Virus record (IMG/VR): IMGVR_UViG_3300014893_000002
Span: 1 to 30,764 of that record
Direction: 5' to 3' (one strand)
DNA length: 30,764 bases
DNA from: a virus
Taxonomy: Duplodnaviria > Heunggongvirae > Uroviricota > Caudoviricetes
The translations under genes and the position numbers were made by a program. Positions 18,519-30,764 of the stretch are shown here, piece by piece; within the stretch, counting starts at the first letter, position 1, and every line of letters starts with the position of its first letter. The notes under the pieces were generated by a model. That model was not told where the DNA came from. It saw only the letters and a list, made by a program, of their open reading frames with translations, and searched no databases.

Positions 18519-18563
18519 GTTTCCTCCTGCTACCACGATACCAGAAACAGTTAACAACCGTTA

Positions 18564-18767: not shown

Positions 18768-18943
18768 AACATCAGCCCAACGTGCCGCTGCTCTCCGGTA
18801 CAGCTGAAGGGACGTAAGATAAATGAATGGTGATTCGTGAGATAATTTCGAACGGGAGTGGGTTAAAACGAATGCTACCGAATAATTTTATGAAATTGTT
18901 TTGCTGTATGTGAAACGGTAGCAGTTCACAAAAAACAGAGAAT

Positions 18944-19144: not shown

Positions 19145-19785
19145 TCTTTCTGCCGTGCGCTAATGGCTTTATTTCTGGTTCGTCTGATCCTCACCATGGC
19201 AATCTGATCTGCAGGGATATAGGTTGCCATCGCTCCCCAGCTTTTACTTTCAACATCTTTTTCAATCCATTCATCGCGCCCCGGTTTCTTTTCATGAGTG
19301 ACATACATCACTATGTCTTTTTCCACTCCTAACACAAAAGAACCGCTGGCCTGGCCTTCAAATTTCCCCGGATTTTCAGAAAGCAGCACAGTACCATTCT
19401 TCAGATAGACATACGCCTCGCTGATATAGTATCCATGTTGATCAAACATACGCATCCAGGCAGAGGGGGTATCATCAGACCATGATATATCCTTATTTCT
19501 GAGGAATCTGTACATCCATTTACGCCCATATTTTCTCCATAATGCAGCGTATGCAAAAGCGCAAAGAAGTGTTGGAGGTGTCGCCAGCCACGAATTCAGA
19601 CCTGCCCACATAACAGCCTGGTAAACCATCATTGACAGCAAACCAAAAATCAGCGTCGAAAACGTCACCTCAATGGGTTTGTGATGGTTCTTCAGCCCCA
19701 CGTTCGCAATAAAATAGCCGATATAACCACTGGTGAGCGTCACCAGCGTTGCCCATGGCAGATTCAGCAAGGATGCATCAAACAT
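19141..19785 (-). CDS. integral membrane protein of unknown function
   Basis: 214 aa with several predicted N-terminal transmembrane helices and a soluble C-terminal domain; GGAGG RBS. Separated from the Mor-side genes by a terminator. Confidence 0.6.
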   Translation of the reverse strand: MFDASLLNLPWATLVTLTSGYIGYFIANVGLKNHHKPIEVTFSTLIFGLLSMMVYQAVMWAGLNSWLATPPTLLCAFAYAALWRKYGRKWMYRFLRNKDISWSDDTPSAWMRMFDQHGYYISEAYVYLKNGTVLLSENPGKFEGQASGSFVLGVEKDIVMYVTHEKKPGRDEWIEKDVESKSWGAMATYIPADQIAMVRIRRTRNKAISARQKD

Positions 19786-19817
19786 ATTTCCTCCGGTGAT
19801 ATGTTTTTCTGCCAGAA

Positions 19818-19853
19818 TAAAAAAAGCGCAACAGGTTATCCATTGCGCTTTTC
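19818..19853. terminator. bidirectional intrinsic terminator
   Basis: AAAAGCGCAA, an 11 nt loop, then TTGCGCTTTT; perfect 10 bp complement flanked by A and T runs. Confidence 0.5.
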
Positions 19854-19879
19854 ATAAACCGGGAATTTATTGACGTTCG

Positions 19880-20116
19880 TTAACACTTTGGTGGCGGTGG
19901 TGGTGGGTTACGTAAAACTTTCCCGTAATACAAAACACAATTTTCATCAGGCCCGATATGCAGGCGCGAGTTGTCAATCAGCCTGTCGCATTCCCGGAGA
20001 ACATATCTCGCCTCAGCAGAAGTCAGACCGTCAAAAAAATGCCGGATAATTTCCATCGCCATATCTGCATGGTCTGCCTTCTTCAGGGGGGCGCTGTTGG
20101 GGGTTTTATAGCGCAT
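19880..20116 (-). CDS. hypothetical protein (Pro-rich C-terminus)
   Basis: 78 aa from ATG 20116 with GAGG RBS; ends ..RNPPPPPPKC; immediately downstream of mor. Confidence 0.45.
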   Translation of the reverse strand: MRYKTPNSAPLKKADHADMAMEIIRHFFDGLTSAEARYVLRECDRLIDNSRLHIGPDENCVLYYGKVLRNPPPPPPKC

Positions 20117-20133
20117 TATCACCTCGCTTTTGA

Positions 20134-20520
20134 TTAATCCCGGCTGTCATCCGGTTCATCATCGTCTTCGAATAACTGTCCCTGCAACCGGCTGATTTCT
20201 TCCTTTCTTACGCGCTTCACCAGGTTGTAAATCCAGGGAACTGAAACCCTGAATCTGCGGGACAGTTCGTGGTGGTTACGTCCGTTAAACGCCTCATAGA
20301 TTTCACGGTCACGCTGGCTTATCTTCCATCTCATCCCCATAGGAAAATAAACGTTTTGCCCGCCCCAGACCTGCATCATGCGGTTCGCGACGGCCTGACC
20401 AATCTGGTCGGCAATTGCGGGCTCAATATCAATAATCTCGCGAACGGTCTCAGAGGTATGCTGTGCCAGTTCCACCAGGAGTTCCGGCCCTTTACTTCGA
20501 AACTGATTCAGGTCGCTCAT
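20134..20520 (-). CDS. mor: Mor-family transcriptional activator (phage Mu middle operon regulator-like)
   Basis: C-terminal region ..GGQNVYFPMG..REIYEAFNGRNHHELSRRFRVSVPWIYNLVKRVRK matches the Mu Mor/C family pattern (GGQ.VYIP.G .. FNGRN..EL...Y.V). Acidic C-terminal tail. Confidence 0.8.
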   Translation of the reverse strand: MSDLNQFRSKGPELLVELAQHTSETVREIIDIEPAIADQIGQAVANRMMQVWGGQNVYFPMGMRWKISQRDREIYEAFNGRNHHELSRRFRVSVPWIYNLVKRVRKEEISRLQGQLFEDDDEPDDSRD

Positions 20521-20944
20521 GTTTTACTCCCGCAGCTCTGCGCTGCCACTTCTTCAGTTTCTCAATAACACTGCTTGCCTGTTCAGTATTGAGCCAGCGC
20601 AGGGCGCTGATGCCCGTTTCCCGCTTGATCCACCGCGCTAATGCATTTTCTGAACGGTCACGAACAATGCCGGCAGCAGCCATTTCAAGCCATAGCGCAC
20701 GAATTTTCCTGGACTGCGGATGGTTATCCAGCGGTAAACCGGAGCTGGCTTTTCTGGCAGGCTTAACGCGAAAGCCTTTCCTTTTCATGGATTCCAGCAC
20801 GCAGTTTAGTTGTGTGGTATCCATTCCTTTGGTTGAGGCTTTACCGGTCAGCCCCTGTAACATCTGGCGGTAGGTGTCTTCATCCATACCCAGTTCATTA
20901 CGGGCAATATGAATGAGCTGGATAAGACGTTGTTTAGTCATCAT
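20492..20944 (-). CDS. gemA: GemA / Mu gp16-like protein (DUF1018)
   Basis: MTKQRLIQLIHIARNELGMDEDTYRQMLQGLTGKAS.. is typical of Mu gp16/GemA-like proteins; AAGGAG RBS upstream of ATG 20944. Confidence 0.65.
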   Translation of the reverse strand: MMTKQRLIQLIHIARNELGMDEDTYRQMLQGLTGKASTKGMDTTQLNCVLESMKRKGFRVKPARKASSGLPLDNHPQSRKIRALWLEMAAAGIVRDRSENALARWIKRETGISALRWLNTEQASSVIEKLKKWQRRAAGVKHERPESVSK

Positions 20945-21149
20945 CGTTGCTCCTTTTACCTGCGCCACCGATATAATCGACATATAAAGGAAGCGCCACA
21001 GGCCAGCACAGGAACATCACCGACCAGCTAATCCAGTAGCCGGCACCACTGTAACGTGAATAAAACCCTGAACGGCGGTGCAGTTCAGCAGTACACCAAC
21101 CGACAAAACAATACCAGAACAGGGCACATACAACAGATTCAGCCGTCAT
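20934..21149 (-). CDS. small membrane protein
   Basis: About 71 aa from ATG 21149, hydrophobic (..VVCALFWYCFVGW.., ..WSVMFLCWPVALPLY..). Confidence 0.4.
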   Translation of the reverse strand: MTAESVVCALFWYCFVGWCTAELHRRSGFYSRYSGAGYWISWSVMFLCWPVALPLYVDYIGGAGKRSNDDD

Positions 21150-21369
21150 TCTGAATATCCCCCCAACTGATATGAATATTACGGGCAGCAATGACAGGGT
21201 CGTTATTCCACCATGCACCTGACATGTATTTTTCAACCTGTTCGCGTCCGGCAATAACACCAATTGTGATCCCCGGCCTGACGTTCTTAAAAAAGGCGCG
21301 GGCAAAAAGGTATCTGGCAGATATTCGGCAGGCTTTTAATTTCCGGCTGTTACCTGATAGCGTAATCAT
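21139..21369 (-). CDS. hypothetical protein
   Basis: 76 aa; ATG overlaps the stop of the upstream gene (ATGA), consistent with an operon. Confidence 0.4.
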   Translation of the reverse strand: MITLSGNSRKLKACRISARYLFARAFFKNVRPGITIGVIAGREQVEKYMSGAWWNNDPVIAARNIHISWGDIQNDG

Positions 21370-22049
21370 CTGGCCTCCAGTTTCTGTTGTTCCTGCCCAC
21401 TGACCGGGCGGTGCAGTCTGACGTTCTGCCCTTCACGAAACCCCGCATAGCGCGAGGCGTCGCCATTGCGGCTTCTTCCCGGTTTACGCGCCCTGGTGGT
21501 TTGCGTTTGCGGGTATTTATGTTCCAGCCACTGTTGCATCAGTTCACGCTCATCATCGGTCAGGGCAAAGGACTGTATTTCACTGATAACGGCCAGTACC
21601 CAGCCTTCAGCAAACTGGTCTCCACGGCTGGTACGGGTGGCGTTTTTTATTCTTTTGTTCTGTGCGCTGATATACTGCTGACGCGCCTTTTTCAGCTGGC
21701 GGACCAGCACTTCCCAGGTGTACGCAGCCAGTGCCGCTCGTTCCCGGTTACCGTAGAACCCCACAGACGGATGCGTGCCGGGGTGAATGATGGAGTTAAC
21801 ACCAAATGCCTCGCGGATGATGTTCATCAGGCCCAGCATGTAGCGCGGTGGACGGAGACTGCCTGTCGGCCAGTAATGACTGATGGTTTCATCAATATCA
21901 CTCATAGCAATGTCGGAATGTGTGATGCCGTGAACATCCATCAGTTTACGGGCTCGGCGCAGTGCCAGAGCGGCCTCGTGCGGGTTGCCGGATGCGGCCA
22001 GCGCCAGCAACTTTTTCAGTTTCTCAATGTGTTTATTCTGGTCTGTCAT
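21366..22049 (-). CDS. DUF2786-like phage protein
   Basis: N-terminus MTDQNKHIEKLKKLLALAASGNPHEAALALRRA.. resembles DUF2786-type proteins common in prophage early regions; start set at ATG 22049. Confidence 0.5.
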   Translation of the reverse strand: MTDQNKHIEKLKKLLALAASGNPHEAALALRRARKLMDVHGITHSDIAMSDIDETISHYWPTGSLRPPRYMLGLMNIIREAFGVNSIIHPGTHPSVGFYGNRERAALAAYTWEVLVRQLKKARQQYISAQNKRIKNATRTSRGDQFAEGWVLAVISEIQSFALTDDERELMQQWLEHKYPQTQTTRARKPGRSRNGDASRYAGFREGQNVRLHRPVSGQEQQKLEAR

Positions 22050-22261
22050 TGTTCTGTATCTCCGGTATTTTTCTGCCGTTTCCATGCCCGGACAGCGTCG
22101 GACAGCTCTTTCAGGCTGTATGCTGCTTTAAGCTTTTCCCATAACCACTGTGTTGTTATGTGCATCAGCAGGGCAGCCAGGGCTGCCCCCGCACTGAGGC
22201 ATGTCGCCAGGCCAGTAAGAATCAGTGTCCATGCGGTGATTTCCCTGAGTATGTCAGCCAT
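22046..22261 (-). CDS. small membrane protein
   Basis: 71 aa with a central hydrophobic helix (..WTLILTGLATCLSAGAALAALLM..). Confidence 0.4.
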   Translation of the reverse strand: MADILREITAWTLILTGLATCLSAGAALAALLMHITTQWLWEKLKAAYSLKELSDAVRAWKRQKNTGDTEQ

Positions 22262-22275
22262 TGAATGCCTCCCGG

Positions 22276-22572
22276 TTACTCGTTCGTGTAAATCACGCCC
22301 AGTCGTGCAGCCAGACGTTCCAGTTTTTTCTGTTTGTGGAAGTCAATCAGCCGGTCCATCCCCTGAAGGCGCAGTTGCTCTGTCATGATTTCCACGTCTG
22401 CCAGCTCTGCCGCGAGGTCACTTTCGCTGCCCTGTCCGTTCAGGTTGCGGGCGGCACTGGCCGCCAGTTCAGCGGCCTCTTCTGTCAGTTTCAGGGCCTG
22501 TGCGTCCGGCCCGAAACGCTGCAGGGCCAGACGGTAGAGGGCGGTGCGGGTGAGTTCGGTGTTTCGTGTCAT
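22276..22572 (-). CDS. MazG-like nucleotide pyrophosphohydrolase domain protein (putative)
   Basis: 98 aa with ..LTEEAAELAASAA.. and ..AAELADVEIMTEQL.. resembling the EExxE/ELADV helices of small MazG-like proteins. Tentative. Confidence 0.4.
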   Translation of the reverse strand: MTRNTELTRTALYRLALQRFGPDAQALKLTEEAAELAASAARNLNGQGSESDLAAELADVEIMTEQLRLQGMDRLIDFHKQKKLERLAARLGVIYTNE

Positions 22573-22581
22573 GCCGCGCCC

Positions 22582-22854
22582 TCAGTGCTTCCGGCTGACG
22601 GTGATGTGCAGGCCGCCTTCTGCAGTGGTTTCCATCCGGTACGGCACCTCATGCTCTGCCGTGTGGGTGAGTGTGTTCATCAGTACCTGCAGGGCAGCCT
22701 CCTTTCCGTTGGTCGCCACAATGGCCTGTGTGGCCATGCTGATTAGCGCCGTCAGGACGTGCTTCACATCGGTGAGGTCGCGGCATTCACACTCGTTGAC
22801 ATAGTGTTCAACAAGAGTTCGGGTGCGCTGTCGTGCTTCCTGTGGGGTAATCAT
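22582..22854 (-). CDS. hypothetical protein
   Basis: 90 aa ORF within the early operon; no recognisable family. Confidence 0.4.
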   Translation of the reverse strand: MITPQEARQRTRTLVEHYVNECECRDLTDVKHVLTALISMATQAIVATNGKEAALQVLMNTLTHTAEHEVPYRMETTAEGGLHITVSRKH

Positions 22855-23045
22855 TGCGCGTCCTCCCTGTCAGGGCGGGAGAATTCTATGACGGGCACGT
22901 CCGCCGAAAAATGCTGGCTGCAGTACGGGCAGACCAGGGTGACACGTACTGCAGGTATGTGATACTTACCGGACATCACGGCGATGGCGCTGTGAAAACG
23001 CAGGGCTGTTATATCCCTCTCGCACTGAATACATTTAAATATCAT
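22851..23045 (-). CDS. small zinc-ribbon protein
   Basis: 64 aa with paired CxxC motifs (C5/C8 and C39/C42); GAGGAG RBS. Confidence 0.45.
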   Translation of the reverse strand: MIFKCIQCERDITALRFHSAIAVMSGKYHIPAVRVTLVCPYCSQHFSADVPVIEFSRPDREDAQ

Positions 23046-23142
23046 AATTTAATTCTCCTCTGTTTCCGGCGTGCAGAAGCCCACGGCGCTGACGCCGGAA
23101 TAAAAAAGAAAATGTTTTTATTAAATAATTAACGTGGTGTGT

Positions 23143-23673
23143 TTACTGCACATCCTGCTCAAAAGGAATTATTGAAAAATCCTCAATATCACTTTTTATG
23201 GTAATACCGGGAATATTTTTCACAGCCTCTTTTTCATTCAGAATGGCATCTTTATTTATTTCCTCCTTTACACGAATAAAGCGCTCAAGCCCCAGACGTC
23301 TCAGCAGTTCAATGACATTATCCGCCCCGCGAATGCTGACTGACGGCGGACGGTTTCGCCACTGCACCTCGCCGGTGGTGAGGTTAGCGAACTTCACCTT
23401 CCCGTTGCCGGTCAGTTCATCACGGTGCGCCTCACACCATGTCTGGATACCGGACTGCAGTTCGGCCATGCGTTTTTTCAGGCTCTCGGTGAGCGGGGCA
23501 TAACGTGCAGTGATGTCGCCAATGGTGTCATTCATTTCTGTTTCAGCCCTGACCAGTTCACGTTGCGCGTCACCAAGCAGTCTGATTCCCTCAATGACCT
23601 CTTCGCGTGTCCCCGGCACCCAGAGTGCTGCTGCGGCTTTGATACGTTTTGCCCCTTTTGTACTTTTTGCCAT
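23143..23673 (-). CDS. gam: host-nuclease inhibitor protein Gam (phage Mu Gam-like)
   Basis: 176 aa; near-colinear similarity to Mu Gam as recalled (MAK..KRIK.AAA..VP, ..WCEA.RDELT..GKVK.ANL.TG.V.WR.RPPSVSIRG.., ..GIT.KS.IEDFSIIPFEQ). Confidence 0.85.
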   Translation of the reverse strand: MAKSTKGAKRIKAAAALWVPGTREEVIEGIRLLGDAQRELVRAETEMNDTIGDITARYAPLTESLKKRMAELQSGIQTWCEAHRDELTGNGKVKFANLTTGEVQWRNRPPSVSIRGADNVIELLRRLGLERFIRVKEEINKDAILNEKEAVKNIPGITIKSDIEDFSIIPFEQDVQ

Positions 23674-23700
23674 ATTTTATGACTCCTCCTGTTGTGCTGA

Positions 23701-23970
23701 TTACCACAAAGATTCCGGCCACACGACGCGACAGCCGTGCAGTTCGAAAACGCCCTGACGGAAATATCCCCTGTGGTCATGTCCGGTATACAGATAACAG
23801 GCCTTTCCCTGCTCAAGCATGCGCATGCAATGCGCACTCCTGGAAACACGGATGACAGGTTTGTTACCCCTGATGGTGATGCTTTGTACATCCGTGTTCG
23901 TCGCCTTAAGCGCCATAATGGCTGACTGCACTTTACTGATTTGCTGGTTGATACCTGTGGTGGATTTCAT
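23701..23970 (-). CDS. hypothetical protein
   Basis: 89 aa ORF between the B-like ATPase and gam; no recognisable family. Confidence 0.4.
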   Translation of the reverse strand: MKSTTGINQQISKVQSAIMALKATNTDVQSITIRGNKPVIRVSRSAHCMRMLEQGKACYLYTGHDHRGYFRQGVFELHGCRVVWPESLW

Positions 23971-23972
23971 TA

Positions 23973-25139
23973 TTAAACCCCTTTGACAACGTCAGCGTTG
24001 ACCTGTGGAGCCCCGATTTCAGCGGCCAGATTCATGGCGGCTATTACCAGGTTACTGACGGCCAGCGGATACAGCAGGCTGACCATATTTTTACGATGAC
24101 TTCCCGGATTGCTCAGGCGGGGACGTATGGCATCCACTGCGCTGGCGTCCATAATGTCCGTCAGTTGTTTACCGGCCCGTTGCAGTTTGAACGTCAGAAA
24201 CTCTTCAAGGTGATTGTCCAGAGGCAGAAGTTCGACCACCTCACAGCGCTGAACGACTTCGCGGACTTCCATATTGCGTTCAGACAGTTTTGTCGCCAGT
24301 TCCGGCTGGCCAATCAGCACGATGGACAGCAGTTTTTTAAAACCGGACTCCAGCTCAAAAAAGCGTTTGAGGTGTTTCAGTGTCGGAATGGGCAGACTGT
24401 GGGCCTCCTCAATCACCAGAACGTGGCTGAACCCCGCCTGGCTGCTGTCTTTCAGGACGCGATGCAACTGGCGAAAGCGGGCGTCCTGACTGCGTCTGAT
24501 GCTTTCCAGTGGTGCGATGGTACTGATAATGGCTTCGGCAATCGCTGCTGCCTTCAGGGTTTTCCCTTTCACATCGTTGTCTTCCATAGCGATGATGTAT
24601 GGCTCGATAACAATTACCGGCGCATTCTCGCGGTTGATACGTTCAGTCAGGTCGCGGCGCAGCGTGGATTTACCCGCACCGGACTCACCGATGACGGCCA
24701 TAAACCCACCATGACGGGCTGTCTGGTACAACGCCTCACGCACGTAGCGAATGTCCGGGGTGGTGAACACATCATCAGAACCCTGCATGGCTTCGTCGGC
24801 GAACGGGTCACGGAAAAGACCAAACGCTTTTTTGGTTGCTGGAAATAACACCTGTTTTTTGAGTAACATATTCTCTTCCTCACTGAGGCTCGTTTTATCT
24901 GTGGTACCCGCTGTACGGGGCGTGGCCGCGCCCTGTACAGCATCAAAACTCTTCGTTGTATCAATCCCCTGACTTTCCAGCCAGGACGCAAGACGCCGGC
25001 GCACTTCTCCGGGACTGGTGCGGGGCCACGCGTTATGATTCACAATCTGGGCCAGCGTGGCCTCAGAAACATCGACAGCTCTCGCCACCACCGCCTGTGG
25101 AATACGGGCCTCTTTCAGTTGCTGCTTCAGTACCAGCAT
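23973..25139 (-). CDS. transposition ATPase (MuB/TniB-like AAA+ protein)
   Basis: N-terminal HTH-like segment, Walker A GESGAGKST and Walker B ..HVLVIEEAH; immediately downstream of the DDE transposase. Start set at ATG 25139 with GGAGG RBS. Confidence 0.7.
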   Translation of the reverse strand: MLVLKQQLKEARIPQAVVARAVDVSEATLAQIVNHNAWPRTSPGEVRRRLASWLESQGIDTTKSFDAVQGAATPRTAGTTDKTSLSEEENMLLKKQVLFPATKKAFGLFRDPFADEAMQGSDDVFTTPDIRYVREALYQTARHGGFMAVIGESGAGKSTLRRDLTERINRENAPVIVIEPYIIAMEDNDVKGKTLKAAAIAEAIISTIAPLESIRRSQDARFRQLHRVLKDSSQAGFSHVLVIEEAHSLPIPTLKHLKRFFELESGFKKLLSIVLIGQPELATKLSERNMEVREVVQRCEVVELLPLDNHLEEFLTFKLQRAGKQLTDIMDASAVDAIRPRLSNPGSHRKNMVSLLYPLAVSNLVIAAMNLAAEIGAPQVNADVVKGV

Positions 25140-25149
25140 GTATCCCTCC

Positions 25150-26919
25150 TCAGTTGCCGTTAACAATGCTGATAACGCTGCTGCGGGCCGGCGTGGTCAG
25201 CGTGGCCATGACTTCATCCAGTGCGGCTTCCGGTACGCCGTCCGGGTACTGTGCCGTTAACTGGCGGTAATGTTCCGGCGTCCAGGTAAGGCCGTCGGCG
25301 CTGAACTTATCGCGCAGGGCTTTCGCGGCCTCCACATGAGTCATGGGACGTTGTTCAGTGCGCGGCCCGCGTACGTCAGAGGCCTGACCACGCTTCGGCA
25401 TATAGGCCGGAAGTGTGGTGTCGTCGATATGTTTATACGGGTCAAGCCGCCCGCCGAACGGCAGCGCCTTCGCCTTGCGTGCGGCGGCTGCATCTGCAGC
25501 GTTGTCTGTACCGGTAACCAGCGCTTCAGTTTCTTTTGCCGCCATCTGTGCCGAGGTTTCCGGCAGGGCTTTGTAACTTTCGCCAAATACCGCCGCGCCT
25601 TCAGCAAAGCCAAACTCGTTCTTTCTGACCTCTTCGACCAGGAAGAACGTCTCGTGGCCGTCCTCACCGGTCAGAACCACCTGTGCCACATCGCTGCGCC
25701 ACGGGTTACGGGTAATCATCAGTTTTTCACCAACCAGTACGCCCGGTACCGTTGATACGTCAAATTCAGTGCCCCGGAACGAGACACGAAGTTTTGGCGT
25801 GACTTTGCGGAGTTCTGGTGCCGCCACAGCCAGTTCACGACATACCTCAACGGAAGGCGCTTTTTTCAGCTGCTCAGCAGTAATCTTCAGCCAGATATCC
25901 GTGCGGGTTTTACCGTGGCGGCTGTGAACAGCCGTGGCGTTAAAGTGGCTGCGCCATTTCGCGGCCAGCGCGTTGAGTTCTTCCAGACTGTGAACCGGCC
26001 GGAACTTCAGACCCGGCTCCAGCTTGCGTTCGATAATGTCCCGCGCCTTTTCCACCTGTCCGGTGGCGCGGGCGTTATGCGGCTTGTGCGCTATCAGGTC
26101 GATGCCCAGTGAGCGGCACATGTTTTTCGTCATACCCGCGGTGTTTGCCGAGCCGGGGTCGAGATAGAGTATTTTCGGCACACCGTGCAGCACGTCTGCG
26201 CCGCCACGCTCCTGCATGGCGTTGATAAGCACAGAACACAGGTTCTCACCTGATTCCGCGCCCGTCACATACTCAACGTAAATCCAGCCGCTGGCATGGT
26301 CGGTAATCTCGTAACTCCACACGCGGTCACTGGCGATACGGGCAAGGTTAGCGGGCTTGTTCTTGTAGAACTTCGCGCTGTCCATCACCTGCAGCCCTTT
26401 ATGTCCATTGCTCAGGTAGTAAAGCGTGCAGAGTGAGGCGTCAATCTGCCAGACATGATTGGGATGCAGACTGGCCACTTCGGTATGTGGTGCAGGGGCA
26501 TCCAGTTGTTCCGGGTGCAGGCCATAGTTACGCAGGGCACGACTGATGGCATCTTCGGACAACGGGAAAAACTCACCGGTGGTTTCATCTGTTCTGCCTG
26601 CGGTGATAAAGCCGTTAGCCCGCAGGGTTTCCACTGCATCTGCGATGGAATAGAGACGCTTACCGTTCTTGCGGGTGGCCTCACGCAGTGTGGCAGATAT
26701 CAGCGCGGCTTCGTCGCGGGTCAGGGCGCTGCGCCCGGCATCGGCGCGTTTTTTGCGTTTATCAGTCACAGATACCTCCTTCAGCCTGCGCAGCAGAGTG
26801 GCGCGGGACATGCCAAGTTCAGCACAGGCAGCGTCGTATATTGCACCGCGTTTACCATGCCCCGCGTCACGTGCCGCGCGGGCGACATAAACCAGTCGTT
26901 CAGTCAGGGCAGCATTCAT
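25150..26919 (-). CDS. DDE transposase (Mu A-like, rve/integrase core)
   Basis: 589 aa with an N-terminal HTH region and integrase-core motifs (..HVWQIDASL.., ..ILYLDPGSANTAG.., then an E-containing helix); paired with the AAA+ ATPase gene as in Mu A/B. Confidence 0.75.
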   Translation of the reverse strand: MNAALTERLVYVARAARDAGHGKRGAIYDAACAELGMSRATLLRRLKEVSVTDKRKKRADAGRSALTRDEAALISATLREATRKNGKRLYSIADAVETLRANGFITAGRTDETTGEFFPLSEDAISRALRNYGLHPEQLDAPAPHTEVASLHPNHVWQIDASLCTLYYLSNGHKGLQVMDSAKFYKNKPANLARIASDRVWSYEITDHASGWIYVEYVTGAESGENLCSVLINAMQERGGADVLHGVPKILYLDPGSANTAGMTKNMCRSLGIDLIAHKPHNARATGQVEKARDIIERKLEPGLKFRPVHSLEELNALAAKWRSHFNATAVHSRHGKTRTDIWLKITAEQLKKAPSVEVCRELAVAAPELRKVTPKLRVSFRGTEFDVSTVPGVLVGEKLMITRNPWRSDVAQVVLTGEDGHETFFLVEEVRKNEFGFAEGAAVFGESYKALPETSAQMAAKETEALVTGTDNAADAAAARKAKALPFGGRLDPYKHIDDTTLPAYMPKRGQASDVRGPRTEQRPMTHVEAAKALRDKFSADGLTWTPEHYRQLTAQYPDGVPEAALDEVMATLTTPARSSVISIVNGN

Positions 26920-26922
26920 TGG

Positions 26923-27837
26923 TTATGCCTCCAGCCCGTTAATCTGTGGCGTCGGCTCAGTCAGCCATGAAGGCGCTGCATTGCCTGTTGGCTCGTCCGG
27001 CAGGTCAAATGTGGAGCGCAGGCTACGCGCTGTGCTTTCCAGTTGACAGACCAGGCCTGCCATGAAGTCTCTGGGGGTATCAATCATGTTTTCAGCACAA
27101 TATGCGCACAGCGTCTCAAAAGCGCTGGACAGTCGGACGGCGATAGCAGATTCCGCCTCAACCGCTAATGCTGTTACTTCCGCCCGCAGCTTCTTAACCT
27201 CCTCATCAGGCTCAGGCGGCTGAATACGGGATTTCTTCTCCAGTCTGGTGGAGAGTGAATCTATTTTTTCATTTTTGTCGGCGAGTACGCGCTGTTGTGC
27301 TGCGTTGGTTTCGCGCGCTTCGCGCAGGGCCTGACGCAATTCACGTACTGACATGCGATCAACGTCGTCAAGCGTCAGGCCGGCAACTGTGCCGCCGTCG
27401 GCCAATTCATCAAGTTCTTCATTATCCAGAACCATCAGGTCGTACAGTTTGGCTTTCCCCAAAACGCTCAACGTTGAGCGTTTTGTTGGCTCATCACCTT
27501 CTCCCAAAAACTTCATACTGGCTTGCATCATGCGGCGAGCAACTTGTGGTGCAAGTCCGAGTTCATTTTCTAAAATGTTTGTAAAATCACCGTGTGGCTC
27601 ATTTTCTTTTAAGATGATCAGCCGCTTACCCGCTTCCAGCATAGATTCAGCACTCTGCGCCATATAAAAACGTGCTTCGTGAACAATGCGATCACGTTCA
27701 TAAGGCAGTCCATCACCAAACTGCTGCATAATTTCCATGCGATGCTGTGTCATAGCGTTCAAATTGACATTGATGTTATCTGACAGCGGAACCTCAACAT
27801 TCAGTTCAGTGTTAACGGGTGATTTGGTGCGTCCCAT
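26923..27837 (-). CDS. hypothetical protein (coiled-coil rich)
   Basis: 304 aa ORF with AAGGAG RBS lying between the Ner-like gene and the transposase; no confident family. Confidence 0.5.
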   Translation of the reverse strand: MGRTKSPVNTELNVEVPLSDNINVNLNAMTQHRMEIMQQFGDGLPYERDRIVHEARFYMAQSAESMLEAGKRLIILKENEPHGDFTNILENELGLAPQVARRMMQASMKFLGEGDEPTKRSTLSVLGKAKLYDLMVLDNEELDELADGGTVAGLTLDDVDRMSVRELRQALREARETNAAQQRVLADKNEKIDSLSTRLEKKSRIQPPEPDEEVKKLRAEVTALAVEAESAIAVRLSSAFETLCAYCAENMIDTPRDFMAGLVCQLESTARSLRSTFDLPDEPTGNAAPSWLTEPTPQINGLEA

Positions 27838-27847
27838 TGATTACTCC

Positions 27848-28156
27848 TTACAAACGACTACCTGAAATAACTCGTTGGTTGATTTCGTTAATACGATCCT
27901 GTGCACGCGCCATCTCGTGACTGTGAGCCATGGCGATCTGTAGTAACTGGATTCCCGGTGCGAAACGTCCGTTCTCTAATTTCATGGCCAGTCCCTCTTC
28001 AATAAGGGTATTAAGTGCTCGATTGATATTCGCCGGGGACTCCCCCAGGGCTGATGCCAGTTCACCGTTAGAAACACCGTTCAGAGCATGACCGCGTAGA
28101 GCTTTGAGTACACGTAGGATGCGGGTCCCAGAACTGGAAATATTTACTTTACTCAT
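27848..28156 (-). CDS. winged-helix DNA-binding protein (putative transcriptional regulator)
   Basis: About 102 aa from ATG 28156; ..GVSNGELASALGESPANINRALNTLIEEGLA.. is an HTH/winged-helix pattern. Confidence 0.45.
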   Translation of the reverse strand: MSKVNISSSGTRILRVLKALRGHALNGVSNGELASALGESPANINRALNTLIEEGLAMKLENGRFAPGIQLLQIAMAHSHEMARAQDRINEINQRVISGSRL

Positions 28157-28208
28157 GTCACATTTCCATTTTTGCAATATGTGATAACCTGTTGCATATG
28201 TGGAAAAT

Positions 28209-28397
28209 TTATGCCGCATTTGACGTGGGTTTTAATCCCAGTTTTACGGCAATTTCATGGGCTTTGCCGTAACGAGCTTTGGTCTGTCCATTGAGAACAC
28301 GATAGACCTCATTGCGGCTGTAGCCGTGTTCTTCGGCCCAGCGGGTAAACGTGATACCACGCTGACGGAAGAGATTTTTAACTTGTTCGGAAGTCAT
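28209..28397 (-). CDS. ner: Ner/Nlp-family DNA-binding protein (Mu Ner-like early regulator)
   Basis: 62 aa; ..LFRQRGITFTRWAEEHGYSRNEVYRVLNG..GKAHEIAVKLGLKP aligns with the Nlp/Ner pattern (..L..KG.S.A..SR..GLS.STLANAL.R..P.GE.IIA.ALG..P). AAGGAG RBS; first gene of the minus-strand early operon. Confidence 0.7.
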   Translation of the reverse strand: MTSEQVKNLFRQRGITFTRWAEEHGYSRNEVYRVLNGQTKARYGKAHEIAVKLGLKPTSNAA

Positions 28398-28448
28398 TGT
28401 TGTCTCCTTTGTTGATGCAATGATGTTTGTTTTATATGTGATAGATTA

Positions 28449-28466
28449 TGAGAACTATTGTTCTCA
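28449..28466. promoter_or_regulatory. candidate operator: perfect inverted repeat TGAGAAC-N4-GTTCTCA in the divergent promoter region
   Basis: Read directly from the sequence, between the divergent Ner-like and XRE-family genes. Confidence 0.5.
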
Positions 28467-28483
28467 TTGTCAATGAGGTTTGT

Positions 28484-28909
28484 GTGAATTTTGATTCTCT
28501 TTGCGCGTCGCGGTTCAAAGCTGAGCGTTCGCGGTTATCACTCAAGCAGGCTGAAGTAGCAGCCCTTTGTGGCGTTTCAAGAGAAATGTGGGGGAAATAT
28601 GAACGAGGGGTTGCTGTTCCCGGAGGTGAGTTACTTGCAGCCTTTGCAAGAATTGGGGCCAATGTACAGTTCATTCTTACCGGGGAGTCATCAGGTATAA
28701 CTTTATCACGTGATGAAATGGAGTTACTGCAGCACTACCGGCAGGCACCATTACAGGTCAAAGGTTCAGTTTTGTCGGCCTTGACTACTGGCTCCTCCAG
28801 AGAACGGGCGGAACAGGTTATTCATGGAGATGTTCTGGGGAATGTTATCAAAGGTAACGTAACCATAGGAACAGGTGGAATAATGAACAAAAATACCAAG
28901 AGAAGATGA
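28484..28909 (+). CDS. XRE-family HTH transcriptional regulator (candidate prophage repressor)
   Basis: HTH_XRE signature ..LSLKQAEVAALCGVSREMWGKYERGVAVPG..; divergent from the Ner-like gene, as for c versus ner in Mu. Start placed at GTG 28484 (GAGG RBS); the track ORF begins at ATG 28448. No LexA-like S24 peptidase domain seen. Confidence 0.7.
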   Translation: MNFDSLCASRFKAERSRLSLKQAEVAALCGVSREMWGKYERGVAVPGGELLAAFARIGANVQFILTGESSGITLSRDEMELLQHYRQAPLQVKGSVLSALTTGSSRERAEQVIHGDVLGNVIKGNVTIGTGGIMNKNTKRR

Positions 28910-29892
28910 GTAAAGAGAAGCAAACAGTTAACGGGGATGTGGGTAACGTTGTCAGCGGTGATGTTACCATTCATAACTATTCTGCTGACATACTTCCTTC
29001 GGCCCAGCAACCAATTTCGTTGCTGCAAAAACGCGATTTACACAGATTGATGGATGAATTGGTTGATCTGGGGGAAAGTAAGCGCGAGCTATGGATGACG
29101 ATCCACACGAAACTTAATACCAAAACAGTTAATGAAATGACTGCGGCTGATTATCATGGTGCGGTTGAGATCCTTCAGAGATATGCACAACAGATCCAGA
29201 ATATGAAGGACTGTAATCTTCTGGTCAGCAAAATAATGGCGCTTACTGACCCTGGGTATCGTCTTGACCGTGACAGATACTGTCTGAAGCATTTCGGTAC
29301 AACCCATCTTAAAGGCCTAGACAAAGAGCAGTTGCAGGCTGTGTTTGGTTATTTTGATGATCTGCTGAATATTCGTGATGAGAGTAAAACTCTATCACCT
29401 CCATCGGAAAGCGGTGCAAAATCAGTCGCAACTGTACCAACCAGAAGCCGGAAGCCTCATGTAGTAGTGTTGGGGGGAGTGTTAGTTCTTGTAGCAATAT
29501 TTTTCGTGGGAATGATTGTGTTCGCTGGTAAATGGGGAAATGCCAAAGCAGTAGCTTCTACTGAAACCAGCGTTTTTAACATTAAAACCAACGATAAAAT
29601 AATAGAAGATTCCATCCCCGCACTGCGCAGCATGTTTCCAGGGTTAAATAAGTACTCAGATGATTTCCATTCGGTTTCAAGCTACAAGCAAAAAACGGGC
29701 TGGCATACCCTTAAATTTACTGTATCAGCAAAGGCATCCGTCCCCGAAAATTATAGTGTTAAGGGCAAGGTTTGTTACATTAACATAAGCCCTGATGGTA
29801 GTTATGCTCGGGTTTTGACTGCTCCATGTCGTTCACTGCTACTTGATCAGCAAAGCACTCCTGACAGTAAATACCGTTTTATTCTTAAATAG
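28906..29892 (+). CDS. hypothetical single-pass membrane protein (repressor-linked cargo)
   Basis: 328 aa; ATG overlaps the XRE stop (ATGA); one central hydrophobic helix (..PHVVVLGGVLVLVAIFFVGMIVFAG..); AT-rich; no recognisable family. Confidence 0.6.
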   Translation: MSKEKQTVNGDVGNVVSGDVTIHNYSADILPSAQQPISLLQKRDLHRLMDELVDLGESKRELWMTIHTKLNTKTVNEMTAADYHGAVEILQRYAQQIQNMKDCNLLVSKIMALTDPGYRLDRDRYCLKHFGTTHLKGLDKEQLQAVFGYFDDLLNIRDESKTLSPPSESGAKSVATVPTRSRKPHVVVLGGVLVLVAIFFVGMIVFAGKWGNAKAVASTETSVFNIKTNDKIIEDSIPALRSMFPGLNKYSDDFHSVSSYKQKTGWHTLKFTVSAKASVPENYSVKGKVCYINISPDGSYARVLTAPCRSLLLDQQSTPDSKYRFILK

Positions 29893-29982
29893 AAAATAAC
29901 AGCTGAATTACCATGGGATCAGAAAAAAGACAAAGGCGGCATCATGCTGCGTTCTGAAATTTTAATGTAAAAGGTGATGAAC

Positions 29983-30564
29983 ATGGCAGGGATTCAGGTT
30001 ATCGCAGGAAGTTTTCCTAAAGGGTGGGCAAGCATGGGGTTCGGTACCATCGTGTTTGCCAAAAAACCAAAACAAGGCTTTCCTGAAAATATTGTATTAA
30101 ATCTGAAAGAAGAGCTTTTATCGATTGAACTTGCGGATAGTGAAGAGGAAAGCCGTATAGGTAAGGCGGCAGGCGCAGGTTTGCTTGGTGGATTAATCTT
30201 TGGTGGTGCAGGGTTGGTCATTGGAGGTTTGCTTGGTGCGGCGGACAAGACGAAAAAAACTATCACTTTTAAGGCAATGTTTACGGGAAATAGGTTACTT
30301 CTGGCTAAAACAGATTCAAAAACTTTTGTAAAACTTCAGTCAATTGCTGCTGATAATGCCCATAACGCATCTGTAATCAACATGAAGCAAACTAATAGGG
30401 GCGATGTTTCTTCTCGTAAACAACTAACAGAAAATCCACAGCAGCAAGACTTACCTGCGCCCGCTACAACAGTAAAAATGACTGCCAAAGATAAGTTAGA
30501 ATCGGCTCTTGGGCTGGGAATCATCGTTATAGCTGTTTGGGCAATAATACACTTCTTTTTTTAG
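29983..30564 (+). CDS. hypothetical glycine-zipper membrane protein (repressor-linked cargo)
   Basis: Start at ATG 29983 with AAGGTGA RBS; glycine-zipper segment ..AAGAGLLGGLIFGGAGLVIGGLLGAA.. and a C-terminal helix ..LGLGIIVIAVWAIIHFFF; followed by a terminator. Confidence 0.6.
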   Translation: MAGIQVIAGSFPKGWASMGFGTIVFAKKPKQGFPENIVLNLKEELLSIELADSEEESRIGKAAGAGLLGGLIFGGAGLVIGGLLGAADKTKKTITFKAMFTGNRLLLAKTDSKTFVKLQSIAADNAHNASVINMKQTNRGDVSSRKQLTENPQQQDLPAPATTVKMTAKDKLESALGLGIIVIAVWAIIHFFF

Positions 30565-30566
30565 TG

Positions 30567-30590
30567 CAGCCCTTCAGGGCTGTTTCTGTT
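30567..30590 (+). terminator. intrinsic terminator ending the plus-strand repressor-linked operon
   Basis: CAGCCC-TTCA-GGGCTG hairpin followed by a T-rich tract (TTTCTGTT), directly after the stop codon at 30562-30564. Confidence 0.6.
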
Positions 30591-30601
30591 CAGGAGGTAT
30601 C

Positions 30602-30764
30602 TTAAGGATTATCCGGGGCGTTTTCCTGTTTGCCGTACTTCGGAGACGAACAACATTCTGTTGGCTGACCGGTGAGTTTACGTAACTCCTTCATGAGCAG
30701 CTCCTGATCGTAAACTGTCATCAGTGCCGCAATGGTGGCATGCAGTGCATCGGGCAGTATCCAG
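30602..30764 (-). CDS. 3' end of an unidentified gene continuing beyond the window
   Basis: Open minus-strand frame from the window edge to a TAA stop at 30602-30604 (..DALHATIAALMTVYDQELLMKELRKLTGQ..); not in the ORF track because the start is outside the window. Confidence 0.35.
   Translation of the reverse strand, partial: WILPDALHATIAALMTVYDQELLMKELRKLTGQPTECCSSPKYGKQENAPDNP

What the first reader, a model, noticed from the sequence alone, without database searches (positions are those of the whole stretch)
26923..28219. Two extra genes between the Ner-like regulator and the transposase
Seen in sequence: a roughly 102 aa winged-helix protein and a 304 aa coiled-coil protein sit between the Ner-like gene and the transposase. 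Established knowledge: in Mu, ner is followed directly by A. Inference: these may be additional regulators or accessory transposition factors specific to this lineage.
Basis: partly seen in the sequence, partly recalled or inferred. Interest (0 to 1): 0.4.

Follow-up and report, generated by a model that had tools for sequence, protein, structure and literature searches.

The report
Conserved DNA-binding pair upstream of transposase
The two "extra" genes are not peculiar to this prophage: they are a conserved pair in all B3/BcepMu-type transposable phages. The larger gene carries a perfect 26-bp palindrome in its own coding sequence that its protein very probably binds.

Summary
Both ORFs are real. 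They are a 102-aa IclR-type winged-helix protein (28156..27848, minus strand) and a 304-aa DUF3102 protein (27837..26923). They lie between a Ner-like gene and an rve transposase plus AAA+ ATPase.

They are not lineage-specific. The proteins are 100% identical to annotated E. coli proteins.

A new feature emerged. The DUF3102 gene contains a perfect 26-bp palindrome (27460-27485), which is the only copy of that site in the complete B3 and BcepMu genomes.
- Across 44 distinct homologues the palindrome persists through compensatory changes, including the two central pairs, which an RNA hairpin could not form.
- Residues 98, 101 and 102 of an adjacent helix-turn-helix-like helix co-vary with half-site bases. 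Residue 101 is R with G in 16/16, Q with C in 17/17, and V/A/S with T in 11/11.
- Some symbiont prophages fuse this domain, with matching specificity, to the immunity repressor.

Most likely the protein binds a site in its own gene just upstream of the transposase gene. It would then act as an operator or enhancer-like adaptor. The biochemical role is untested.

The parts
27848..28156 (-). 102-aa stand-alone IclR-type winged-helix protein, the orthologue of B3 ORF14, BcepMu gp12 and phiE255 gp42. The recognition helix is residues 41-53, and a long C-terminal helix (69-100) probably mediates dimerisation.
   Evidence: phrog_1368 at 3e-44 and Pfam HTH_IclR at 1.5e-6. AlphaFold2 pLDDT 91.9. Foldseek matches to IclR DNA-binding domains at E 7e-5 to 1e-3. 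The protein is 92-95% identical in loci whose immunity regions are unrelated.
26923..27837 (-). 304-aa DUF3102 protein, the orthologue of B3 ORF13, BcepMu gp10 and phiE255 gp41. It has an N-terminal helical DNA-binding domain, a short coiled coil and a conserved C-terminal domain.
   Evidence: phrog_1748 matches full length at 8e-141. Pfam DUF3102 scores 28.5 bits against a cut-off of 24.4. There are 1650 representative clusters at E<=1e-3. Proteins 100% identical are annotated in E. coli.
27505..27585 (-). Codons 85-111, encoding a helix-turn-helix-like pair of helices (85-92 and 97-111). Helix 97-111 is the putative recognition helix. The hypervariable specificity segment extends over residues 84-137.
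   Evidence: Secondary structure comes from the AlphaFold2 model, with local pLDDT 62-75. At least 13 alleles occur among enterobacterial loci whose transposases are about 95% identical. Residues 98, 101 and 102 co-vary with half-site bases.
27460..27485 (.). Perfect 26-bp palindrome CAAAACGCTCAAC|GTTGAGCGTTTTG inside the DUF3102 gene (codons 118-126), about 540 bp upstream of the transposase start. It is the proposed cognate binding site of the DUF3102 protein.
   Evidence: It is unique in the window and absent from 100 shuffles. It is the only perfect close inverted repeat in 20000-30764. A palindrome at the homologous position is maintained by compensatory change in 44 distinct sequences. 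It is single-copy in the complete B3 and BcepMu genomes. Among 119 distinct DUF3102 genes 45% contain a palindrome with at least 13 of 14 pairs, against 0% of transposase, ATPase or codon-shuffled genes.
27232..27348 (-). Codons 164-202, a heptad-repeat (coiled-coil-like) helix that probably mediates dimerisation.
   Evidence: The heptad register was read from the sequence. The model predicts a long helix at 164-203. There are weak hits to coiled-coil families.
26926..27225 (-). Codons 205-304, a conserved C-terminal helical domain with an acidic tail and an invariant Trp291. It is the proposed partner-binding (effector) domain.
   Evidence: This domain is shared even with JBD25-type proteins whose N-terminal domain differs. 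Its pairwise distances track those of the transposase (r=0.93) and the ATPase (r=0.92), whereas segment 84-137 gives r=0.55.
28209..28397 (-). Ner-like early regulator of 62 aa, a member of the BcepMu gp16 family and first gene of the early operon (context).
   Evidence: NCBIfam TIGR04111 scores 94.4 bits against a cut-off of 34. phrog_925 matches at 1e-32. The Pfam Ner family HTH_35 matches only at E 0.034.
28445..28473 (-). Sigma-70-like early promoter (TTGACA, 17 nt, CATAAT) that would drive the Ner-like gene, the winged-helix gene, the DUF3102 gene and the transposase and ATPase genes (context).
   Evidence: It matches the consensus at 11 of 12 positions. No promoter-like or minus-strand terminator-like site lies between ner and the transposase.
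25150..26919 (-). rve-type DDE transposase of the B3/BcepMu class, 589 aa (context).
   Evidence: Pfam rve and phrog_310 at 8e-148. No MuA-specific domains are present.
23973..25166 (-). ExeA/AAA_22-type transposition ATPase, the counterpart of the B protein (context).
   Evidence: Pfam AAA_22 at 4e-20 and phrog_296 at 2e-92.

Best explanation
The two genes are core members of a five-gene early cassette that defines B3/BcepMu-type transposable phages. The cassette is a Ner-type gene, a winged-helix gene, a DUF3102 gene, an rve transposase and an AAA+ ATPase. In this window it appears to be transcribed from one early promoter, with the genes tightly spaced.

The 102-aa protein is a free-standing IclR-type winged-helix DNA-binding domain with a helix that probably mediates dimerisation.

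The 304-aa DUF3102 protein is most likely a dimeric, sequence-specific DNA-binding protein. Its helix 97-111 would read a two-fold symmetric site that lies in its own coding sequence (27460-27485). That site is the only copy in the complete B3 and BcepMu genomes and sits about 540 bp upstream of the transposase gene. The protein and its site evolve together as a hypervariable specificity cassette, while the C-terminal domain stays constant and co-diverges with the transposase and ATPase.

I infer that the protein acts as an adaptor. It would anchor at this unique site and, through its C-terminal domain, act on the transposition machinery in an enhancer-like way. It could also gate transcription into the transposase and ATPase genes as an intragenic operator or roadblock. 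In some prophages the repressor has acquired the same DNA-binding domain and would occupy the same site, much as the Mu repressor and MuA share the operator/enhancer.

Status of each step:
- Shown: conservation, synteny, the palindrome, its covariation, the amino-acid/base covariation, and the repressor fusions.
- Inferred: actual binding (about 0.8).
- Inferred more weakly: an adaptor or enhancer role (about 0.45) against a pure roadblock autoregulator (about 0.3).
For: - Orthologues at the same position.
- Synteny: a transposase lies within 450 nt downstream in 134 of 136 loci, and the winged-helix gene within 450 nt upstream in 139 of 141. Typical gaps are 3 nt and 9-12 nt.
- The immunity module is swapped between loci while the winged-helix protein stays 92-95% identical.
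- The repressor's distance correlations with the other cassette genes are 0.35-0.46, against 0.70-0.91 among the four cassette genes.
- The palindrome is unique and perfect.
- In 44 distinct homologues 94% of positions pair, against 70.5% in shuffles (0 of 500 shuffles reach the observed value) and 34-43% when the partners are slid. Ten of 14 pairs show changes on both sides, in 142 cells.
- In the nine inner pairs there are 141 double changes but only 4 G-T-type single changes. The two central pairs, which could not form in an RNA hairpin, are complementary in 43 of 44 sequences and co-vary.
- Control genes never reach 13 of 14 pairs.
- Residue 101 against half-site column 11: R with G in 16/16, Q with C in 17/17, V/A/S with T in 11/11. 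Residue 98 against column 12: R with G in 29/29. Residue 102 against column 14 also co-varies. These associations recur independently in enterobacterial-type and BcepMu-type protein backgrounds, whereas a base that merely marks a clade (column 15) correlates with many residues.
- The site is single-copy in B3 and BcepMu.
- Repressor chimeras occur in Arsenophonus, Symbiopectobacterium, Candidatus Pantoea and an IMG/VR contig. Their specificity segment is 98-100% identical to that of the early protein of the same phage but only 43-62% identical to those of the other phages with a different allele (two of the five loci carry the same allele).
- The C-terminal domain tracks the transposase and ATPase at r = 0.93 and 0.92.
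Against: - No biochemical evidence exists, and no homologue has a known function.
- The structural model of the 304-aa protein is of low confidence, so the helix-turn-helix assignment rests on secondary structure and covariation.
- The recognition helix and the palindrome are only about 60 bp apart, so part of their association reflects linkage.
- The 44 sequences were chosen for at least 11 of 14 Watson-Crick matches, which biases the pairing statistics.
- About a quarter of distinct genes lack a good palindrome at loop 0. Some have spaced or imperfect versions.
- One chimeric phage, L155 (S101 with G), breaks the rule for residue 101.
- Specificity alleles do not correlate with the type of immunity region or with the transposase. 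That fits a self-contained cassette but says nothing about the downstream function.
- The correlation of the C-terminal domain with the transposase could be simple physical linkage.
- Neither protein family shows sequence similarity to the N-terminal domains of MuA.
Confidence: 0.6

Rival explanations
1. Roadblock autoregulator only. The DUF3102 protein binds its intragenic palindrome purely to stop RNA polymerase from reading into the rest of its own gene and into the transposase and ATPase genes. This would be negative feedback on transposase supply, with no direct part in assembling the transposition complex. The chimeric repressors would use the same site as a fail-safe operator in lysogens.
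For: The single site lies inside the early transcription unit, just upstream of the transposase gene. The chimeric repressor genes carry the same site, which would give them autoregulation. Escape from such repressors would explain why so many specificities exist.
Against: A roadblock needs only a DNA-binding domain and a dimerisation element. It does not explain the conserved 100-residue C-terminal domain. That domain is kept even in JBD25-type proteins that have a different N-terminal domain and no palindrome, and it co-diverges with the transposase and ATPase.
Confidence: 0.3
2. The palindrome is an RNA element, such as a hairpin, attenuator, intrinsic terminator or processing site in the early mRNA. 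The variable protein segment would then be a passive consequence of selection on RNA pairing.
For: The element has an A-tract, a stem and a T-tract, like a bidirectional terminator. Its stem co-varies. It lies in a low-confidence linker of the protein.
Against: The two central pairs, which would have to form the loop of any RNA hairpin, are complementary in 43 of 44 sequences and co-vary, with 24 double and no single changes. G-U-type intermediates are almost absent from the inner pairs: 4 against 141. Residues 98, 101 and 102, which lie 17-28 codons upstream and are not encoded by the palindrome, co-vary with specific bases. The terminator scan did not flag the element.
Confidence: 0.07
3. 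An origin-like or partition-like module. The DUF3102 protein and its intragenic site would work like lambda O with its origin inside the O gene, or like ParB with parS inside the parB gene. They would mark the phage genome for replisome loading, positioning or end pairing rather than for transposase regulation.
For: The architecture matches those systems: the site lies inside the gene of the protein that binds it, the N-terminal domain is type-specific, the C-terminal domain is conserved, and there are many specificities. The properties of lambda O and ParB are from my own knowledge.
Against: There is one palindrome, not iterons or multiple parS sites. No ParA-like or helicase-loader gene is adjacent. 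There is no homology to ParB or to O. Transposable phages are believed to replicate by transposition without an origin of their own (my own knowledge; PMC5977238).
Confidence: 0.08
4. One reading: the two genes are lineage-specific additions (morons or local regulators) to a Mu-like early region.
For: Mu itself has nothing between ner and A. Mu and D3112 lack homologues at this position.
Against: Orthologues occupy the same position throughout B3/BcepMu-type phages of Pseudomonas, Burkholderia, Stenotrophomonas and Enterobacterales. The region occurs in 641 of 5426 complete E. coli genomes.
Confidence: 0.02

Closest known systems
B3 ORF14/ORF13, BcepMu gp12/gp10, phiE255 gp42/gp41 and KS10 gp15 (conserved hypothetical early genes of B3/BcepMu-type transposable phages)
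   Same: These are orthologues at 33-57% identity for the winged-helix protein and 38-54% for the DUF3102 protein. They have the same order, the same tight spacing and the same position directly upstream of the rve transposase and ExeA-type ATPase. The intragenic palindrome is at the same codon position.
   Different: B3 and BcepMu have about 1 kb of further ORFs between the Ner-type gene and the pair. BcepMu has a small extra gene (gp11) between the two genes. KS10 lacks the winged-helix gene. Each has its own palindrome sequence and its own recognition-helix allele.
Mu repressor c, MuA domain I-alpha, and the operator/enhancer (IAS)
   Same: The logic is shared. A transposition-associated protein and, in the chimeric prophages, the immunity repressor carry the same DNA-binding domain with the same specificity, so they would compete for the same cis site. 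The Mu side of the comparison is from my own knowledge and PMC5977238.
   Different: There is no sequence similarity. Here the domain is on a separate polypeptide rather than on the transposase. The site is a single palindrome inside a coding region rather than operators in the intergenic region. In this window the repressor is an ordinary XRE-type protein without the domain.
Lambda O protein with the lambda origin inside the O gene, and ParB with parS inside the parB/spo0J gene
   Same: The cognate site lies in the binding protein's own gene. The DNA-binding part is type-specific while the C-terminal partner-binding part is conserved. Protein and site move together as one cassette. The properties of the comparators are from my own knowledge.
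   Different: There is a single palindrome rather than four iterons or several parS sites. There is no homology, no associated P/DnaB-loader or ParA gene, and no evidence of origin or partition activity.
IclR-family transcription regulators
   Same: The 102-aa protein has the IclR-type winged helix and the following linker helix.
   Different: It lacks the roughly 170-residue effector-binding domain altogether, so it cannot be a ligand-responsive IclR regulator.

Membership tests
BcepMu gp10 / B3 ORF13 family (phrog_1748; Pfam DUF3102) | Full-length similarity to the family profile, and a Pfam DUF3102 score above the gathering cut-off | tested here: met
   phrog_1748 at 8e-141 covers residues 1-302 of 304. 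DUF3102 scores 28.5 bits against 24.4. Of 120 representatives, 104 match DUF3102.
BcepMu gp10 / B3 ORF13 family (phrog_1748; Pfam DUF3102) | Position immediately upstream of an rve transposase and an AAA_22 ATPase in a transposable-phage early operon | tested here: met
   The window has a 3-nt gap. The arrangement holds in 134 of 136 related loci.
BcepMu gp12 / B3 ORF14 family (phrog_1368) | A protein of about 100 aa with a winged helix, lying directly upstream of the DUF3102 gene | tested here: met
   phrog_1368 at 3e-44. The fold is confirmed. The arrangement holds in 139 of 141 loci.
IclR family of transcription regulators | N-terminal IclR-type winged helix-turn-helix | tested here: met
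   Pfam HTH_IclR scores 28.3 bits against a cut-off of 22. Foldseek's top hits are IclR, PcaR and TtgV.
IclR family of transcription regulators | C-terminal effector-binding (IclR/GAF-like) domain | tested here: not met
   The protein is only 102 aa. After the wing there is a single helix. Matches cover 66-85 columns of targets about 250 residues long.
Mu-type early region (ner directly followed by a MuA-family transposase) | A transposase with the MuA domains HTH_Tnp_Mu_1, DDE_2 and Mu-transpos_C | tested here: not met
   The window transposase matches only rve and, weakly, HTH_8. MuA and D3112 A match the Mu domains. BLASTP against MuA is not significant.
Ner family (Pfam HTH_35), for the neighbouring gene | A score above the family cut-off | tested here: not met
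   HTH_35 scores 14.6 bits against 25. The gene instead belongs to the BcepMu gp16 family TIGR04111, at 94.4 bits against 34.
Site-specific helix-turn-helix DNA-binding proteins with a cognate palindromic operator | A two-fold symmetric DNA site maintained by selection | tested here: met
Site-specific helix-turn-helix DNA-binding proteins with a cognate palindromic operator | Physical binding of the protein to the site | not testable with these tools
   Only indirect evidence is available: covariation of residues 98, 101 and 102 with half-site bases.
ParB/parS or lambda O/origin type modules | Homology to ParB (with its CTPase N-terminal domain) or to O, together with partner genes (ParA, or the P helicase loader) | tested here: not met
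   No such Pfam, NCBIfam or PDB hits were found. The neighbouring genes are the transposase and ATPase.

The most novel reading that the evidence does not exclude
The DUF3102 protein and its intragenic palindrome are the transposition-enhancer system of B3/BcepMu-type phages. This would be a separately encoded, hypervariable enhancer-binding adaptor that replaces domain I-alpha of MuA. It would give each phage a private cis signal for assembling its transposition complex. Chimeric repressors would target it directly to silence transposition, in parallel to the Mu repressor and MuA at the Mu enhancer.
Probability: 0.3. Interest if true: 0.7.

Novelty: new variant of a known kind. Interest (0 to 1): 0.55.

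Why it matters
B3/BcepMu-type transposable prophages are very common. This region alone occurs in 12% of complete E. coli genomes. Yet apart from the transposase and ATPase, their transposition cassette is annotated only as hypothetical or DUF proteins.

The analysis gives DUF3102, a family with about 1650 clusters at 50% identity, a testable function: sequence-specific DNA binding. It also provides an explicit recognition code (residues 98, 101 and 102 against three half-site bases) and a defined 26-bp target. It identifies a single cis site next to the transposase gene that may control transposase supply or assembly of the transposition complex.

The many interchangeable specificities, and the repressors that have captured the domain, suggest a second layer of immunity or self-recognition that has not been described in this phage class.

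All of this can be checked with simple binding assays and allele swaps.

Tried and rejected
- **Split-MuA idea.** I tested whether the two proteins are detached N-terminal domains of MuA. Profile-profile comparison of both families with the N-termini of MuA and D3112 A gave nothing (probability 0.1%). I rejected homology. Functional analogy remains open.
- **Structure route for the 304-aa protein.** Only homologues of at least 77% identity were allowed as input, and the model was poor (pLDDT 51.6), so I ran no fold search on it.
- **PDB sequence and profile searches.** These returned only coiled-coil noise and a weak MafG resemblance (E 0.03), which I judged to be chance.
- **Fold search of the winged-helix model against viral structures.** Only generic winged-helix hits were returned.
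- **Domain fusions with N-terminal extensions.** The cysteine-rich extensions had no Pfam match and told me nothing.
- **TTATCACATAT motif.** I considered this motif, which lies between ner and the winged-helix gene, as a possible binding site for the winged-helix protein. I rejected that because the motif follows the BcepMu gp16-type ner gene and is absent where ner is of another type, although the winged-helix protein is unchanged.
- **Co-variation with the immunity region.** DUF3102 specificity alleles do not follow the type of immunity region; they reassort freely.
- **Extra copies of the palindrome.** I found no further copies or half-sites in the window or in the complete B3 and BcepMu genomes.
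- **Literature.** Searches for DUF3102, for BcepMu interaction data and for palindromes in transposable phages found no functional study. The B3 genome paper was not available.
- **Failed database scans.** One genome-collection scan with a divergent alignment failed for lack of conserved stretches. One viral scan found nothing.
Full report
**1. What is there**

On the minus strand the window reads as follows:
- a Ner-like gene (28397..28209, 62 aa);
- a 52-nt spacer;
- a 102-aa ORF (28156..27848);
- 10 nt containing a GGAG ribosome-binding site;
- a 304-aa ORF (27837..26923);
- 3 nt;
- a 589-aa rve transposase (26919..25150);
- an overlapping AAA_22/ExeA-type ATPase (longest ORF 25166..23973).

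An XRE-type repressor gene diverges on the plus strand (28448-28909).

A near-consensus sigma-70 promoter (28473..28445, 11 of 12 positions) points into the Ner-like gene. No promoter-like or minus-strand terminator-like site lies between ner and the transposase. The genes therefore appear to form one tightly spaced early operon.

The finding's upper coordinate, 28219, is the start of the longest ORF (123 aa). Three lines of evidence support the 102-aa form:
- the profile alignment;
- the homologues;
- PGAP annotation of an E. coli genome whose homologous region is about 98.7-99.6% identical to the window.

**2. Identity of the proteins**

The 102-aa protein matches phrog_1368 (3e-44) and Pfam HTH_IclR. 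With a 55-sequence alignment AlphaFold2 gives pLDDT 91.9: three helices, a beta-wing and a 32-residue C-terminal helix. The best PDB matches are the DNA-binding domains of IclR, PcaR and TtgV. The IclR effector domain is absent, so this is a bare DNA-binding module.

The 304-aa protein matches phrog_1748 over its full length (8e-141) and Pfam DUF3102 above the cut-off. It has 1650 representative clusters at E<=1e-3. Neither homology nor the literature gives any functional annotation.

Its model is poor (pLDDT 51.6) because only close homologues could be used as input. It is all-helical. The best-supported part is helix 47-79 followed by a helix-turn-helix-like pair (85-92 and 97-111). Long helices follow at 164-203, 212-250 and 255-276. 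Residues 164-202 read as about six heptads.

**3. Not lineage-specific**

tblastn finds the 304-aa protein in 67 phage records and the 102-aa protein in 24. Annotated records show the pair directly upstream of the transposase in these phages:
- B3 (ORF14, ORF13);
- phiE255 (gp42, gp41);
- BcepMu (gp12, gp10, with a small gp11 between them);
- JBD25;
- the E. coli phage PhiKM.

KS10 has the gp10-like gene between its Ner-like gene and its transposase (PMC2628397).

I analysed about 150 loci from IMG/VR and phage records, some of them redundant between searches. These include lineages whose DUF3102 protein is only about 35% identical to the window's. A transposase homologue starts within 450 nt downstream of the DUF3102 gene in 134 of 136 loci. 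The winged-helix gene ends within 450 nt upstream in 139 of 141. The modal gaps are 3 nt and 9-10 nt.

Mu has ner directly followed by A. D3112 has three unrelated small ORFs there. Both carry MuA-type transposases, with domains that the window's transposase lacks. B3-like phages are known to encode different transposition proteins from Mu (PMC5977238).

The region occurs in 641 of 5426 complete E. coli genomes, almost always on the chromosome. [quoted passage not shown] Adjacent gene products with these names, and a nearby Gam protein, were detected and co-regulated in an E. coli proteome (PMC9927464). I did not check their identity to the window's proteins.

**4. The pair belongs to the transposition module, not the immunity module**

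In many enterobacterial loci the repressor and the Ner-type gene are replaced by unrelated versions, for example a true 76-aa Ner. The winged-helix protein nevertheless stays 92-95% identical, with an unchanged recognition helix.

I compared pairwise-distance matrices over 81 non-redundant loci:

| Comparison | Correlation r |
|---|---|
| DUF3102 with transposase / ATPase | 0.87 / 0.88 |
| Winged-helix protein with transposase / ATPase | 0.70 / 0.82 |
| Repressor with any of them | 0.35-0.46 |

**5. A palindrome inside the DUF3102 gene**

Among close relatives the DUF3102 protein is the most variable of the four cassette proteins. The variation concentrates in residues 84-137. At least 13 alleles occur among loci whose transposases are about 95% identical. 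These alleles reassort freely with the type of immunity region.

The DNA of this segment contains a perfect 26-bp palindrome at 27460-27485, CAAAACGCTCAAC|GTTGAGCGTTTTG. It covers codons 118-126, which encode a low-confidence linker. It is unique in the window and is the only perfect close inverted repeat in the Mu-like part.

The homologous position carries a palindrome in B3, phiE255, BcepMu (30 bp) and most other lineages. The outer CAAA...TTTG is conserved and the inner bases differ between alleles.

The covariation count on 44 distinct sequences gave these results:
- 94% of positions pair, against 70.5% in shuffles (0 of 500 reach the observed value) and 34-43% with slid partners;
- ten of 14 pairs change on both sides, in 142 cells;
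- in the nine inner pairs there are 141 double changes against 4 G-T-type single changes;
- the two central pairs, which could not form in an RNA hairpin, are complementary in 43 of 44 sequences and co-vary.

This points to a two-fold symmetric double-stranded DNA site rather than an RNA structure.

There is a caveat. The sequences were selected for at least 11 of 14 matches, and the centre was chosen by complementarity. As an unbiased control I scanned all distinct genes:

| Gene set | Number of genes | With a zero-spacer palindrome of at least 13 of 14 pairs |
|---|---|---|
| DUF3102 | 119 | 45% |
| Transposase | 122 | 0% |
| ATPase | 107 | 0% |
| Codon-shuffled DUF3102 | 119 | 0% |

About a quarter of the DUF3102 genes have no good palindrome. 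Some have spaced or imperfect ones. In the complete B3 and BcepMu genomes the site is single-copy.

**6. A recognition code**

I aligned the 44 proteins and asked which residue in 60-112 best predicts each half-site base:

| Residue (window numbering) | Half-site column | Association | MI/H (mutual information ÷ base entropy) |
|---|---|---|---|
| 101 | 11 | R with G 16/16; Q with C 17/17; V/A/S with T 11/11 | 1.00 |
| 98 | 12 | R with G 29/29; Q/S/K/G with C 12; S/T with T 3 | 0.92 |
| 102 | 14 | R with C 33; V/L/M/K with A 7; K with C 4 | 0.87 |

Residues 98, 101 and 102 lie on one face of predicted helix 97-111, and they pair with neighbouring bases. The three classes of residue 101 occur with the same bases in both the enterobacterial-type and the BcepMu-type protein backgrounds, so the association has arisen repeatedly.

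By contrast, column 15 marks the split between these two backgrounds and correlates about equally with many residues. That is what pure phylogenetic signal looks like.

The window's allele (Q98, R101, R102; half-site ACGCTCAAC) obeys all three rules. I take this as strong indirect evidence that the DUF3102 helix-turn-helix reads the palindrome in its own gene.

One sequence outside the test set, L155 (S101 with G), does not fit.

**7. Repressor chimeras**

In one IMG/VR contig and in prophages of Arsenophonus nasoniae, Candidatus Arsenophonus nilaparvatae, Symbiopectobacterium and Candidatus Pantoea bathycoeliae, the divergent gene in the repressor position is a chimera. Degraded copies occur in Sodalis. 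The chimera consists of a DUF3102 N-terminal domain, a coiled-coil linker and a complete XRE-type repressor homologous to the window's repressor.

The five loci carry four alleles; two loci share one. The chimera's specificity segment is 98-100% identical to that of the early DUF3102 protein of the same phage. It is only 43-62% identical to those of phages with a different allele. The flanks are 82-97% identical everywhere and keep their chimera-type or early-type character. Both copies carry the same, partly decayed, palindrome about 1.5 kb apart.

Either matched specificity is selected or a central tract is repeatedly homogenised by gene conversion. Either way the repressor has been given the same DNA-binding specificity as the early protein. 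This is the relationship known between the Mu repressor and MuA domain I-alpha at the operator/enhancer.

**8. Mechanism**

The following are shown: the conserved cassette, the tight gene spacing under a single predicted early promoter, the winged-helix fold, the selected palindrome, the residue/base covariation, the single-copy site, and the domain capture by repressors.

The following are inferred:
- The DUF3102 protein binds the palindrome as a dimer (about 0.8).
- Through its conserved C-terminal domain it acts on the transposase or ATPase as an enhancer-like adaptor (about 0.45). That domain co-diverges with the transposase and ATPase at r = 0.93 and 0.92, whereas the specificity segment gives r = 0.55. 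JBD25-type proteins with a different N-terminus retain it.
- Alternatively it simply blocks transcription into the transposase and ATPase genes (about 0.3).
- The target of the winged-helix protein is unknown. It does not co-vary with either the immunity region or the palindrome.

**9. Verdict**

As genes, these are already known conserved hypotheticals. The intragenic palindrome, the recognition code and the repressor chimeras appear to be undescribed in the literature I could search. They turn a DUF into a directly testable site-specific DNA-binding system next to a transposase.

Noticed in passing
window 28177-28186 and 28434-28443 (minus strand TATCACATAT): An exact 10-mer occurs about 22 nt after the ner stop codon and again at about +1 of the early promoter. 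In related enterobacterial loci TTATCACATAT always follows a BcepMu gp16-type ner gene. This holds even where an extra ORF separates ner from the winged-helix gene. The motif is absent where ner is of another type. It is probably an operator for the Ner-type protein.
   Followed up: yes
window 28445-28473 (minus strand): A near-consensus sigma-70 promoter (TTGACA, 17 nt, CATAAT) overlaps the first codons of the divergent repressor ORF. Only 50 bp separate the two start codons.
   Followed up: partly
window 1-20200: The window is a composite of several elements. Bases 1-10564 are 99.9% identical to the late region of lambdoid siphophages such as PhiR49_2. Bases 11.1-17.5 kb resemble another element (vB_KppS-Ant, 77%). 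There are therefore two portal genes (8447-9673 and 14432-15745) and two major-capsid genes (6623-7840 and 16272-17441). Only about 20197-30764 belongs to the Mu-like prophage, and its Mor-proximal end differs from that in E. coli AR_0015.
   Followed up: partly
window 17000-20000: GC content dips to 0.44-0.46. The region contains plus-strand ORFs 17728-18234 and 18239-18595 and minus-strand ORF 19141-19785 (phrog_5789 and phrog_12870, function unknown). It lies at the junction between the Mu-like prophage and the neighbouring element.
   Followed up: no
L069 4198-5115; L153 5812-6942; L154 3016-3996; L155 5962-6942; L157 6010-6927: These are chimeric repressors made of a DUF3102 domain fused to an XRE-type repressor, found in Mu-like prophages of insect-symbiont Enterobacterales. 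Just upstream of each lies a 41-codon small ORF containing a poly-G tract whose uninterrupted G run ranges from 10 to 15 across the five loci. In three loci (L069, L153, L157) the stop codon of this small ORF overlaps the chimera's ATG (TGATG). This could be phase-variable translational coupling, or it could be homopolymer sequencing noise.
   Followed up: partly
protein P0299 (339 aa): This protein has the N-terminus of the early DUF3102 protein joined to the repressor C-terminus. That is the product expected if the two inverted DUF3102 copies recombined and inverted the roughly 1.3-kb early control segment. An invertible switch is possible.
   Followed up: no
L003 5921-6238 and loci L027-L032, L042, L054; L055, L056, L061; L004 4634-4846: Small variable ORFs are inserted within the cassette in some lineages. 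PhiKM-type phages have a 105-aa ORF between the DUF3102 gene and the transposase. Three loci (L055, L056, L061) have an extra ORF between ner and the winged-helix gene. BcepMu has gp11 between the winged-helix and DUF3102 genes.
   Followed up: partly
protein P0173 (159 aa, one metagenome contig): A deletion variant fuses residues 1-47 of the Ner-like protein in frame to the upstream extension of the winged-helix ORF. It is probably a rare deletion or an assembly artefact.
   Followed up: partly
proteins P0373, P0403, P0416, P0436 (434-537 aa): Some DUF3102 homologues carry N-terminal extensions of 150-280 residues that are rich in cysteine and histidine and look like zinc fingers. They have no Pfam match.
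   Followed up: partly
window residues 153-175 of the 304-aa protein (about 27313-27381): The conserved motif LTLDD(V/I)DRMSVRELRxALR weakly resembles the extended homology region of MafG bZIP proteins (profile against PDB, E 0.03). I judged this to be chance or coiled-coil bias.
   Followed up: partly
ATPase genes of related loci: Seventeen of 107 distinct ATPase genes contain a zero-spacer inverted repeat with 12 of 14 pairs. This is more than in transposase genes or codon-shuffled controls. I did not examine its position or conservation.
   Followed up: no
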